Origin: the human T2T-CHM13v2.0 reference genome, Homo sapiens
Reading direction: 5' to 3' (one strand)
DNA length: 64,000 bases
Assembly: GCF_009914755.1 (NCBI RefSeq)
Contig: NC_060932.1
Part shown: piece by piece, positions 1-63,830 of the stretch
How positions within the stretch are numbered: position 1 is the first letter of the stretch
Layout of the letters: every line of letters begins with the position of its first letter
Program-made: the position numbers and the translations under genes
The notes under the pieces: generated by a model
Database searches by the model: none
Told to the model about the DNA's origin: nothing
The model's input: only the letters and a program-made list of their open reading frames with translations

Positions 1-385
1 CTTCAGTATTCAAAATTCCAATAATAAATAGTTGTGTTTTGGAAGTTCATCCACAAAGATTCTTGGGTGAGTAGGGGGCTGTTATTCATGGCTGAGTTAT
101 AATAACACTTGGGATCTGTAGACTGTCCAAAAAGGTAACAGAAACCCAGGCTTTCATCAACACTTTCATGAGAGAGATTGTATTGTAGGTTAATAGTTCT
201 TTTCTGAAGAAAATTTTTCAGTTCTGTTTAGCAAATCTGTTATCTACAAAGAACAAAAGAGATTTGAACCTTATTAGACAATGCATTCAGTATGTGAGCC
301 AAAGTATGAATTTCTCAAGCCGTACTTCTCTGACAAATTCTTCCCTCAGAACTGAGGAAATTTTGATTTAAATTGCCCAGATATT

Positions 386-422
386 GGCTCTGTTGCGCAA
401 TGGATAGCGCATTGGACTTCTA
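386..422 (+). pseudogene. Tailless retropseudogene of the 5' half of tRNA-Arg(TCT)
   Basis: GGCTCTGTTGCGCAATGGATAGCGCATTGGACTTCTA matches nt 1-37 of tRNA-Arg-TCT except G9>T. It ends in the anticodon loop, has no 3' half or B box, and is flanked by direct repeat TAAATTGCCCAGATATT (369-385 and 421-437). Confidence 0.93.
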
Positions 423-569
423 AATTGCCCAGATATTTTCTAATCTCCATTTTTTATGCAATAGCTGAATGGAGTTATAATACAGTTTCCTGAGATTATG
501 GCTGATATATTAAACTTCACAAATCTTTGTTTTATTTTCTTTTTCTTAGAGTTGATTTTGTTGTCTTGT

Positions 570-1043
570 TGTCACGTGCATCCGTGTGAAGGGACCACCA
601 AACAGGCTTTGTGTGAGCATCAAGGCTGTTTATTTCACCTGGGTGCAGGCGGGCTGAGTCCGAAAAAGGAGTCAGCAAAGGGTGGTGGGATTATCATTAG
701 ATCTTACAGGTTTTGGGGATAGTCGGTGGAATTAGGAGCAATGTTTTGCAGGCAGGGGGTGGATCTCACAAAGTACATTCTCAAGGGTGGGGAGAATTAC
801 CAAAAACCTTCTTAAGGGTGGGTGAGATTACAAAGAAACTTCTTAAGGGTGGGGGAGATTACAAAGTACATTGATCAGTTAGAGTGGGGCAGAAAGAAAT
901 CACAATGGTGGAATGTCCTCAGTTAAGGCAGGAACTGCCCATTTTCACTTCTTTGTGGATCTTCAGTTGCTTCAGGCCAGCTGGATGTATATATGCAGGT
1001 CACAGGGGATATGATGGCTTAGCTTGGGCTCAGAGGCCTGACA
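570..1043 (-). mobile_element. Solo LTR7-family (HERV-H) LTR
   Basis: Minus strand begins TGTCAGGCCTCTGAGCCCAAGCTAAGCCATCATATCCCCTGTGACC; TG...CA termini; 5-bp TSD CTTGT (565-569, 1044-1048); three internal aagggtggg(g)gaga repeats. Confidence 0.93.
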
Positions 1044-11399: not shown

Positions 11400-13964
<2,565 letters not shown>

Positions 13965-18716: not shown

Positions 18717-19054
<338 letters not shown>

Positions 19055-49685: not shown

Positions 49686-49839
49686 AATAAATTAACCTAC
49701 TAGAGGCTTCTGATGTTCTCATGAAGCTAGTCAAAGGATGCGCCATTAATACATTAATAATATTAATAAAAACTAATAAATTAACCTACCAGAGGCTTCC
49801 GATGTTCTCATGAAGCTAGTCAAAGGATGCTCCATTAAT
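49686..49839. repeat. 65-bp direct duplication with 24-bp AT filler
   Basis: 49686-49750 versus 49775-49839, 3 mismatches. Confidence 0.95.
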
Positions 49840-57135: not shown

Positions 57136-57606
<471 letters not shown>

Positions 57607-63720: not shown

Positions 63721-63830
63721 TAAACAAAAGATGAAAGATTAAAAACAAAATATATATAAATAAGGTCTCTCTATTTAAACAAAAGATGAAAGATTAAAAA
63801 CAAAATACATATAAATAAGGTCTCTCTATT
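63721..63830. repeat. Tandem duplication, 2 x 55 bp
   Basis: 63721-63775 versus 63776-63830, 1 mismatch. Confidence 0.96.

What the first reader, a model, noticed from the sequence alone, without database searches (positions are those of the whole stretch)
369..437. Retrotransposed 5' tRNA-Arg(TCT) half with a perfect TSD and no poly(A) tail
Seen: tRNA nt 1-37 start exactly at the mature 5' end and stop at the anticodon loop. They sit between 17-bp direct repeats at a TTT/AAA site, with TA(A) shared between the RNA end and the target. Known: L1 ORF2p makes tailless retropseudogenes primed by microhomology; these Arg-TCT genes have an intron after nt 37, and stress nucleases such as angiogenin cut anticodon loops. 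Inference: the template was a 5' tRNA half or a TSEN-released 5' exon present in the germ line, or a full tRNA primed internally.
Basis: partly seen in the sequence, partly recalled or inferred. Interest (0 to 1): 0.7.

Follow-up and report, generated by a model that had tools for sequence, protein, structure and literature searches.

The report
Known tailless tRNA-Arg retrocopy
This is a real but ordinary relic: a 35-base copy of the front half of an arginine tRNA that the LINE-1 machinery pasted into chromosome 8, of a kind described in 2004 and already listed at this very spot in a 2015 catalogue.

Summary
Window 386-420 matches nt 1-35 of tRNA-Arg-TCT (34 of 35 to four of the five genes). 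It lies between perfect 17-nt direct repeats (369-385, 421-437) at a TT/TAAA site, has no A-tail, and TA(A) is shared between the tRNA and the repeat.

It is an L1-type "tailless retropseudogene", a class described by Schmitz 2004 and Noll 2015. Table S2 of Noll 2015 lists a 39-40-nt ArgTCT copy at hg19 chr8:122827872-122827911, almost certainly this locus. The finding is therefore already known.

The single mismatch, G9>T, is probably not a later mutation.
- In 33 Arg-TCT retrocopies of this genome, position 9 is changed in 15 (5 T, 5 A, 5 C), against 10% at other non-CpG G sites.
- In 33 tRNA-Gln retrocopies it is changed in 8 of 8 copies without a 5' leader and 2 of 25 with one.
- Both tRNAs carry TRMT10A-made m1G9, so this looks like a fossil reverse-transcriptase error.

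The template was then a 5'-processed, methylated, probably intron-free RNA. Whether it was a pre-cut 5' half or 5' exon, or a whole tRNA primed in its anticodon loop, stays open. Family data lean to internal priming. The insertion could not be dated.

The parts
365..374 (+). L1-endonuclease-type target, GATT|TAAATT. The bottom strand would be nicked opposite 368|369, leaving a primer that ends ...AATTTA-3'.
   Evidence: sequence. It fits TT/WAAAAWW, the consensus quoted in Noll 2015. That the nick was made by L1 endonuclease is inferred.
369..385 (+). 5' copy of the 17-nt target-site duplication.
   Evidence: 17 of 17 identical to 421-437.
386..420 (+). tRNA-Arg-TCT nt 1-35 (acceptor strand, D arm, 5' anticodon stem, loop up to C35). 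No 5' leader base lies between the repeat and G1.
   Evidence: 34/35 to the chr6, chr9, chr11 and chr17 genes, starting at gene nt 1.
394..394 (+). T at tRNA position 9, where all five genes have G. Probably a fossil reverse-transcriptase misincorporation opposite m1G9.
   Evidence: position-9 hot spot in 33 Arg-TCT and 33 Gln retrocopies. (Vilardo 2020: TRMT10A-dependent m1G9 in Arg-TCT).
421..437 (+). 3' copy of the target-site duplication. Its first 2-3 bases (421-423, TAA) can equally be tRNA nt 36-38, so they are the priming microhomology.

Best explanation
The element is an L1-mediated tailless retropseudogene of tRNA-Arg(UCU).

Mechanism:
- Inferred: L1 ORF2p endonuclease nicked the bottom strand at GATT|TAAATT.
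- Shown as microhomology: the freed 3' end (...TTA-3') paired with U36-A37(-A38) in the anticodon loop of an Arg-UCU RNA.
- Inferred: reverse transcription ran to the RNase-P-made 5' end G1. A base other than C went in opposite m1G9, which reads as T9 today.
- Shown: a second nick 17 nt downstream gave the 17-nt duplication.

The copy has no B box and no 3' half, so it is inert.

The template was a 5'-processed, TRMT10A-methylated, most likely intron-free RNA, and the copy shows no trace of m3C32. My split on the template is:
- about 55%: a whole, newly spliced or nuclear tRNA primed internally in its anticodon loop;
- about 35%: an RNA already cut there (a TSEN 5' exon or a nuclease-made 5' half);
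- about 10%: an end-processed, intron-bearing precursor.

The confidence given is for the class and mechanism (an L1-type tailless retrocopy of a 5'-processed Arg-UCU RNA), not for the choice among these templates.
For: Anatomy.

The class is published, with this mechanism:
- Noll 2015, Introduction and Results read: 3'-truncated, tailless, TSD-flanked tRNA copies that end in loops, with 2-18 nt of target complementarity, and internal priming favoured.
- Its Table S2 ('Human tailless retropseudogenes') has the row chr8 122827872-122827911, chr11.trna3-ArgTCT.
- The T2T-minus-hg19 offset of +118.5 kb is in line with offsets of 16 other Arg-TCT rows that I could pair with my loci.
- Searches find only one such copy on chr8.

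Family, Arg-TCT:
- Nt 13-35 with up to 3 mismatches hits 38 places, against 0 for the reversed control. These are 5 genes and 33 copies.
- Many copies carry leader and intron bases of a particular source gene. They are therefore RNA copies of pre-tRNAs.

Position 9, Arg-TCT:
- Changed in 15 of 33 copies (T5, A5, C5), against 27 of 264 at eight other non-CpG G sites; binomial p = 2e-7.
- Changed in 12 of 14 copies ending at nt 35-38, against 1 of 15 that run into the intron; p = 2e-5, at like age.

Position 9, tRNA-Gln:
- Changed in 8 of 8 leaderless copies, against 2 of 25 with a leader; p = 3e-6.
- All 25 genes have G9.

Vilardo 2020 (Table 2 and its section read): Arg-TCT and Gln carry TRMT10A-dependent m1G9, which makes reverse transcriptases err and is put on mostly after end processing.

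Intron: present in 0 of 8 leaderless Arg copies and 15 of 22 with a leader; p = 0.002.

Internal priming: Gln copies of unprocessed precursors end at the same two spots (nt 35-40 and 42-43) as leaderless ones.
Against: - No enzyme is shown. L1 is inferred from the site and the duplication.
- The site is TTTA/AA on the nicked strand, one base off the classical TTTT/AA.
- For this one locus, G9>T could be a plain mutation.
- Arg-TCT copies with a leader also have position 9 changed in 7 of 22. That fits poorly with m1G9 coming only after end processing and needs an extra assumption: splicing or TSEN cleavage before 5' trimming.
- L022 and L024 are leaderless yet keep G9.
- My leader and end classes were set by eye. 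An automatic TSD finder gave other leader lengths for several copies, though none of them crossed the class limit.
- C32 is unchanged in all 14 loop-class copies, while mature Arg-UCU has m3C32. This may only mean that m3C32 templates never yield copies.
- The hg19 row was matched by offset, not by lift-over.
- The empty site in other primates was not seen.
Confidence: 0.9

Rival explanations
1. The template was a pre-existing 5' fragment. It would be either the 5' exon released by TSEN (ending at A37) or a 5' half cut in the anticodon loop by a nuclease such as angiogenin. ORF2p copied it from its very end with 2 nt of pairing.
For: - The insert never needs more than nt 37. In the 14 loop-class Arg copies, no unambiguous base beyond nt 38 is present.
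- Of the 15 copies classed as spliced or loop-ending, only 1 (L022) runs past the loop, although CAAA at nt 41-44 serves as a priming site in precursor copies (L015, L048).
- Six of 7 leader-bearing loop-class copies carry the position-9 change. A long-lived leader-exon fragment would fit that.
- No m3C32 trace, which fits an RNA that never had a closed anticodon loop.
- A 2025 preprint (passages read) proposes tRNA halves (nt 1-37) as the source of tRNA/LINE-1 chimeras.
Against: - In tRNA-Gln, which has no intron, copies of 5'-unprocessed precursors end in the anticodon loop as often as leaderless ones. Three of 8 leaderless, position-9-changed copies end at nt 43-47, where no half ends. Internal priming is therefore needed anyway and explains all classes.
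- Noll 2015 looked for matching truncated 5S and U2 RNAs and found none.
- TAA (3 nt) fits the spliced tRNA one base better than the 5' exon. This is weak, because targets are A-rich.
Confidence: 0.35
2. G9>T is an ordinary post-insertion point mutation and says nothing about the template.
For: It is a single base. L022 and L024 are leaderless with G9 intact.
Against: - The other 34 insert bases, all 4 CpG-site positions and 17 of 17 repeat bases are unchanged.
- Position 9 is changed in 6 of 8 leaderless Arg copies and 8 of 8 leaderless Gln copies, with all three other bases. It is never changed in the 5 + 25 genes, and in only 2 of 25 leader-bearing Gln copies of the same DNA context.
Confidence: 0.1
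3. It is a DNA-level remnant of a tRNA gene (deletion of the 3' half), or filler DNA captured at a double-strand break. It is not a retrotransposition.
For: None beyond the short length.
Against: - A perfect 17-nt duplication abuts gene nt 1 exactly.
- The upstream flank resembles none of the five genes' flanks.
- It sits at an L1-type site.
- At least 32 sister copies are built the same way, on other chromosomes.
- There is no B box nearby (nearest match at 12690).
Confidence: 0.02

Closest known systems
Tailless retropseudogenes of tRNAs (Schmitz et al. 2004 Genome Res 14:1911, not readable here; Noll et al. 2015 Genome Biol Evol 7:889, PMC5322556)
   Same: 5' complete, 3' truncated in a loop, no A-tail, 8-35-nt TSD, A-rich L1-type target, short complementarity between target and RNA end. 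This locus appears to be row chr8:122827872-122827911 of their Table S2. Thirty-two ArgTCT rows are listed there, and 15 of them span 35-40 nt by end minus start (my count).
   Different: Nothing structural. The text I read (Introduction, Methods part 1, Results part 1) does not mention base changes at modified positions. The paper gives no age for single loci.
tRNA/LINE-1 chimeric insertions with half-length tRNAs (bioRxiv 10.1101/2025.02.02.635956; passages read)
   Same: tRNA nt 1-37 copied by L1 machinery, TSDs of 9-19 bp, and the idea that cut tRNA halves are templates.
   Different: Those are fused to L1 sequence, mostly antisense (twin priming). Here there is no L1 part.
Classical L1-mobilised processed pseudogenes and SINEs
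   Same: Target-primed reverse transcription, a TSD of typical length, and a TT/AAAA-like site.
   Different: No poly(A). Priming is by 2-3 nt inside the RNA or at a non-A end.
Modification-induced misincorporation in tRNA sequencing (m1G9 signature; Vilardo 2020 PMC7293042; mim-tRNAseq PMC8062790, listing only)
   Same: Random base opposite N1-methyl-G9, TRMT10A substrates Arg-TCT and Gln, and a signature that is low on end-extended precursors.
   Different: There it is read in cDNA libraries made with laboratory enzymes. Here it would be fixed in germ-line DNA by L1 reverse transcriptase.

Membership tests
Tailless retropseudogene (criteria of Noll 2015, Methods) | 5' end complete (at most 5 nt missing; up to 20 nt of precursor allowed for tRNAs) | tested here: met
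   Starts at gene nt 1, with 0 nt between the repeat and G1.
Tailless retropseudogene (criteria of Noll 2015, Methods) | 3' truncated by at least 10 nt, at least 30 nt long, more than 69% identical to the source | tested here: met
   35-38 of about 73 nt (spliced), 34/35 identical.
Tailless retropseudogene (criteria of Noll 2015, Methods) | Flanked by 8-35-nt TSDs of at least 70% identity | tested here: met
   17 nt, 100%.
Tailless retropseudogene (criteria of Noll 2015, Methods) | No oligo(A) tail; truncation in a loop; target complementary to the last 2-18 nt of the copied RNA | tested here: met
   No A-run. It ends in the anticodon loop, and TA(A) is shared with the repeat.
Tailless retropseudogene (criteria of Noll 2015, Methods) | Target like TT/WAAAAWW | tested here: met
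   TT/TAAATTG: both T's and 5 of 7 following positions fit.
Tailless retropseudogene (criteria of Noll 2015, Methods) | Insertion shown by an empty orthologous site | not testable with these tools
   No primate genomes are held. Table S4 of the paper is a summary without loci.
Functional tRNA gene | Full cloverleaf with A and B boxes | tested here: not met
   ARAGORN finds 0 genes. Rfam gives no tRNA match. No B-box-like site within 12 kb.
cDNA of a pre-cut 5' tRNA half or TSEN 5' exon | Template RNA ended at the cleavage site before reverse transcription | tested here: inconclusive
   The insert is compatible with an end at nt 35-38. Family data neither require nor exclude it.
Poly(A)-dependent L1 retrocopy (processed pseudogene or SINE) | 3' A-tail | tested here: not met
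   None.

The most novel reading that the evidence does not exclude
Base changes at tRNA position 9 in tailless retrocopies are fossil errors of L1 reverse transcriptase opposite m1G9. Each copy would then record how mature its template was in an ancestral germ-line nucleus.

Read this way, the chr8 copy came from an Arg-UCU RNA that was 5'-trimmed and TRMT10A-methylated, with no intron and no m3C32 trace.

The Arg-TCT family would hold two template pools:
- unmethylated primary transcripts, primed in the intron (position 9 changed in 1 of 15);
- methylated, intron-free species that end at the anticodon loop (12 of 14), some still with a 5' leader.

The second pool would point to splicing or TSEN cleavage before 5' trimming in the human lineage.

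I found no paper saying this (searches; no hit for 'modification', 'm1G' or 'misincorporat' in the 2025 preprint). I could not read Schmitz 2004. The probability given is for the reading being both right and unpublished.
Probability: 0.45. Interest if true: 0.55.

Novelty: already known. Interest (0 to 1): 0.22.

Why it matters
The locus itself adds nothing. It is one of thousands of tailless retropseudogenes and is in a published list.

The side result could matter. If position-9 changes are m1G9 footprints, the roughly 2,400 catalogued copies become a free archive. It would show which tRNA species (primary transcript, end-processed, spliced, modified) met L1 reverse transcriptase in the germ line. 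It would also give a handle on the open question of internal priming against pre-cut halves.

Tried and rejected
- ARAGORN and Rfam at E up to 10 do not see the half tRNA. The tRNA identity rests on genome matches instead.
- A negative control with tRNA-Leu-TAG (G9, not in Vilardo's m1G9 list) was dropped. Its pattern gave 46 hits, almost all in gene clusters and too few of them dispersed copies. Other G positions and the genes served as controls instead.
- Dating from print failed. The locus occurs once in Noll's supplements, and Table S4 gives only totals. The supplement of Kojima 2010 gives counts only, with no chr8 or Arg row.
- A rate-based bound is weak: 95% upper limit 29-59 My under two recalled rate sets.
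- Schmitz 2004 is not held. Supplements of the bioRxiv preprint were not opened.
- My pattern search is incomplete. Only 17 of Noll's 32 ArgTCT rows could be paired with my 33 copies; for example, chr8:19191734 was not found.
- For Gln, only the 59 of 79 hits with up to 2 mismatches were fetched. L097 was set aside because its 5' part does not align.
- Three Arg copies (L038, L041, L046) had no clear TSD. They were left out of the class tests but kept in the 15 of 33.
- The DNA-deletion and break-filler readings were rejected (see rivals).
- A promoter role was rejected: no B box.

Full report
**1. What is in the sequence**

Window 369-385 and 421-437 are the same 17-mer, TAAATTGCCCAGATATT. 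The 35 nt between them (386-420) were searched with their flanks against the window's own genome. That gave the locus itself and 9 other places, each matching from window 385/386 to at least 422, E 5e-9 to 1e-6.

Five of these places are complete tRNA-Arg-TCT genes on chr1, 6, 9, 11 and 17.
- ARAGORN finds a tRNA at the match in each, under odd labels because of the intron.
- The printed contexts show a common 5' part up to TCTA, then 12-18 variable bases, then a common ATTCAAAGGTT... 3' part.

The window copy starts at gene nt 1 with no base between the repeat and G1. It is 34/35 identical to four genes and 33/35 to the chr1 gene. It differs from all five at nt 9 (T for G, window 394). Nt 36-37 (TA), and A38 of the spliced form, are also the first bases of the 3' repeat. 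There is no A-run.

A perfect 17-mer pair this close is expected 0.0004-0.01 times per 64 kb. It is the only perfect pair among the 9 close direct-repeat families of the window.

**2. What it is**

The anatomy is that of a tailless retropseudogene: 5' complete, 3' cut in a loop, no tail, a 17-nt duplication, an insertion site GATT|TAAATT, and 2-3 nt shared between RNA end and target.

Noll et al. 2015 (PMC5322556; Introduction, Methods part 1 and Results part 1 read) describe exactly this.
- They report hundreds of 3'-truncated tRNA copies, 'processed or unprocessed', first described by Schmitz et al. 2004.
- Truncations map to loops. The target is complementary to the last 2-18 nt. The consensus target is TT/WAAAAWW.
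- They conclude that internal priming by the L1 machinery is the likely route.

Their Table S2 ('Human tailless retropseudogenes', hg19) holds 32 ArgTCT rows. One is chr8 122827872-122827911, chr11.trna3-ArgTCT.
- The window copy lies at T2T chr8:122946386, an offset of +118.5 kb.
- Sixteen other rows pair with copies I found, at offsets that agree within chromosomes: chr2 -381 and -377 kb; chr11 +117, +134 and +140 kb; chr21 -3.03 and -3.02 Mb.
- Only one such copy lies on chr8 in my searches.

I take the row to be this locus, though I could not run a lift-over. The finding is therefore already known, both as a class and as a locus. By end minus start, 15 of the 32 rows span 35-40 nt (my count), so the anticodon-loop end is the commonest one.

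**3. The family in this genome**

Nt 13-35 of the copy, with up to 3 mismatches, hits 38 places, against 0 for the reversed control. These are the 5 genes and 33 copies (contexts; TSDs).

Many copies carry bases upstream of G1 that match the leader of one gene.
- L018 and L021 carry gtct, as in the chr11 gene.
- L015 carries caagca, as in the chr6 gene.
- L033 and L037 carry caggt, as in the chr1 gene.

Many also carry intron bases of the same gene. L015 has the whole chr6 intron plus attcaaa. L018 has 8 nt of the chr11 intron. These are copies of nuclear pre-tRNAs that end at varied points, each overlapping its TSD. That is what internal priming predicts.

By eye I classed the 33 copies as follows:
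- 14 'loop' copies, ending at nt 35-38;
- 15 'intron' copies, with at least 3 intron bases;
- 1 spliced-looking copy (L022);
- 3 without a clear TSD.

**4. The mismatch at nt 9**

Across the 33 Arg-TCT copies, position 9 is changed in 15 (5 T, 5 A, 5 C).
- That is as often as the four CpG-site positions (11-16 each), which change almost only by transitions.
- Eight other non-CpG G positions are changed in 27 of 264 cases. Binomial p = 2e-7.
- The change is present in 12 of 14 loop copies but 1 of 15 intron copies (Fisher p = 2e-5).
- The two classes have like numbers of other changes (1.86 against 1.67 non-CpG; 1.79 against 1.60 CpG-site). Age does not explain the difference.

I repeated the test on tRNA-Gln, taking the pattern from the Gln-CTG gene that lies in locus L003.
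- There were 79 hits and 0 control hits. The 59 with up to 2 mismatches were fetched.
- They were 25 full-length genes, all with G9, one unalignable locus, and 33 tailless copies.
- Position 9 is changed in 8 of 8 copies with at most 2 nt of leader and in 2 of 25 with a leader (p = 3e-6).

Same DNA context, same kind of element, opposite outcome. So this is not DNA hypermutability.

Vilardo et al. 2020 (PMC7293042; Table 2 and its section read) bear on this.
- tRNA-Arg-TCT-1, -2, -3, -5 and the Gln tRNAs carry TRMT10A-dependent m1G9.
- The modification causes random misincorporation by reverse transcriptase: error 0.08-0.2 in wild type against about 0.002 in the knockout.
- The signature is 'very low' on reads with 5' or 3' extensions.

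The retrocopy pattern matches this closely. I conclude, by inference, that T9 in the window copy is a fossil misincorporation. With it set aside, the copy is identical to its source at 34 of 34 bases, at all four CpG-site positions and in both repeats. That makes it the least decayed of the 33 copies. Its age is still only bounded at under 29-59 My under recalled rates.

**5. Which RNA was copied**

Shown for the family and inferred for the locus:
- The RNA was 5'-processed: no leader, with the position-9 change.
- It most likely had no intron. Intron bases occur in 0 of 8 leaderless Arg copies and 15 of 22 leader-bearing ones, p = 0.002.
- It left no mark at C32. That position is changed in 1 of 33 copies, and that one is an intron copy.

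Mature Arg-UCU carries m3C32, which blocks reverse transcriptase, and t6A37 (Lentini 2020, PMC7237682, passages read; abstracts). So the template was either not yet modified in the anticodon loop (a nuclear species), or m3C32 templates simply never give copies.

Three candidates remain: a newly spliced whole tRNA primed at U36-A38, a TSEN 5' exon, or a nuclease-made 5' half.

For internal priming:
- In Gln, copies of unprocessed precursors end at the same two spots as leaderless ones. Match ends are 34, 35, 38, 38, 38, 43, 43, 47 for leaderless copies. Leader-bearing copies have 10 of 25 at 35-40 and 12 of 25 at 42-43.
- Three of 8 leaderless copies end where no half ends.
- Noll 2015 found no matching truncated 5S or U2 RNAs.

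For a pre-cut fragment:
- Of the 15 Arg copies classed as spliced or loop-ending, only L022 runs beyond the loop.
- Six of 7 leader-bearing loop copies carry the position-9 change. A long-lived leader-exon fragment, or splicing before 5' trimming, would explain that.
- A 2025 preprint argues for halves in tRNA/L1 chimeras.

I put internal priming at about 55%, a pre-cut fragment at about 35%, and an end-processed intron-bearing precursor at about 10%.

**6. Function**

None is expected. There is no 3' half, no B box within 12 kb and no Rfam family at the site. The locus lies in an intron of a predicted lncRNA, far from the two annotated enhancers (hub annotation).

**7. Limits**

- L1 is inferred, not shown.
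- The empty site was not seen.
- Classes were set by eye.
- The copy sets are incomplete. Only 17 of Noll's 32 rows were recovered, and Gln hits with 3 mismatches were not fetched.
- The claim that the footprint is unpublished rests on five full-text searches and one term look-up. Schmitz 2004 was not read.

**8. Verdict**

The class and the locus are already known, so interest is low. The m1G9 footprint seen on the way is the part worth a follow-up.

Noticed in passing
window 394; loci L013-L048 (Arg-TCT copies) and L057-L107 (Gln copies): tRNA position 9 is a substitution hot spot in tailless retrocopies. It is changed in 15 of 33 Arg-TCT and 10 of 33 Gln copies, with all three other bases. 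In Gln it is almost confined to copies without a 5' leader (8 of 8, against 2 of 25). It looks like a fossil m1G9 reverse-transcriptase signature.
   Followed up: yes
L020, L021, L033, L034, L036, L037 (Arg-TCT copies with a 5' leader that end at nt 35-38): Six of 7 leader-bearing copies that end in the anticodon loop have position 9 changed, against 1 of 15 leader-bearing copies that run into the intron. This hints at methylated, intron-free but 5'-untrimmed Arg-UCU species: leader-exon fragments, or splicing before 5' trimming.
   Followed up: partly
L070-L107 (Gln copies); genes L065 and L068 (chr1 cluster): Nineteen of 33 Gln retrocopies have G at nt 20. Most of them also have leaders ending tgtga or atga, as in the chr1-cluster Gln genes. 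A few poorly processed genes seem to have fathered most leader-bearing copies.
   Followed up: partly
L025 (chr2:217.48 Mb) and L026 (chr3:142.64 Mb): Both copies carry the intron variant gcctaaattg, where today's chr6 gene has gcctaaatcaagag. The source allele or source gene has since changed or been lost.
   Followed up: no
Arg-TCT copies, nt 27 and nt 35: T27>C in 5 and C35 changed in 6 of 33 copies. Both are above the background of most sites. Not explained; nt 35 abuts the priming junction.
   Followed up: no
window 768-860: Three tandem 31-nt units (71-77% alike) lie inside a G-rich stretch that starts near 560. It looks like part of an older repeat. Not identified.
   Followed up: no
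window 49686-49839 and 63721-63830: Two recent tandem duplications: 65 nt at 89-nt spacing, 95% alike; and 55 nt abutting, 98% alike.
   Followed up: no
window 18771-18918 and 57272-57419 (minus strand): Two matches to the SRP RNA family just above threshold (71.6 and 70.5 bits), inside the masked stretches. They are most likely Alu elements.
   Followed up: no
L002-L008: ARAGORN in bacterial mode labels the intron-bearing Arg-TCT genes as Leu, Pyl or '???'. Only the chr6 gene is called Arg(tct). Such labels are unreliable for intron-containing eukaryotic tRNAs.
   Followed up: no
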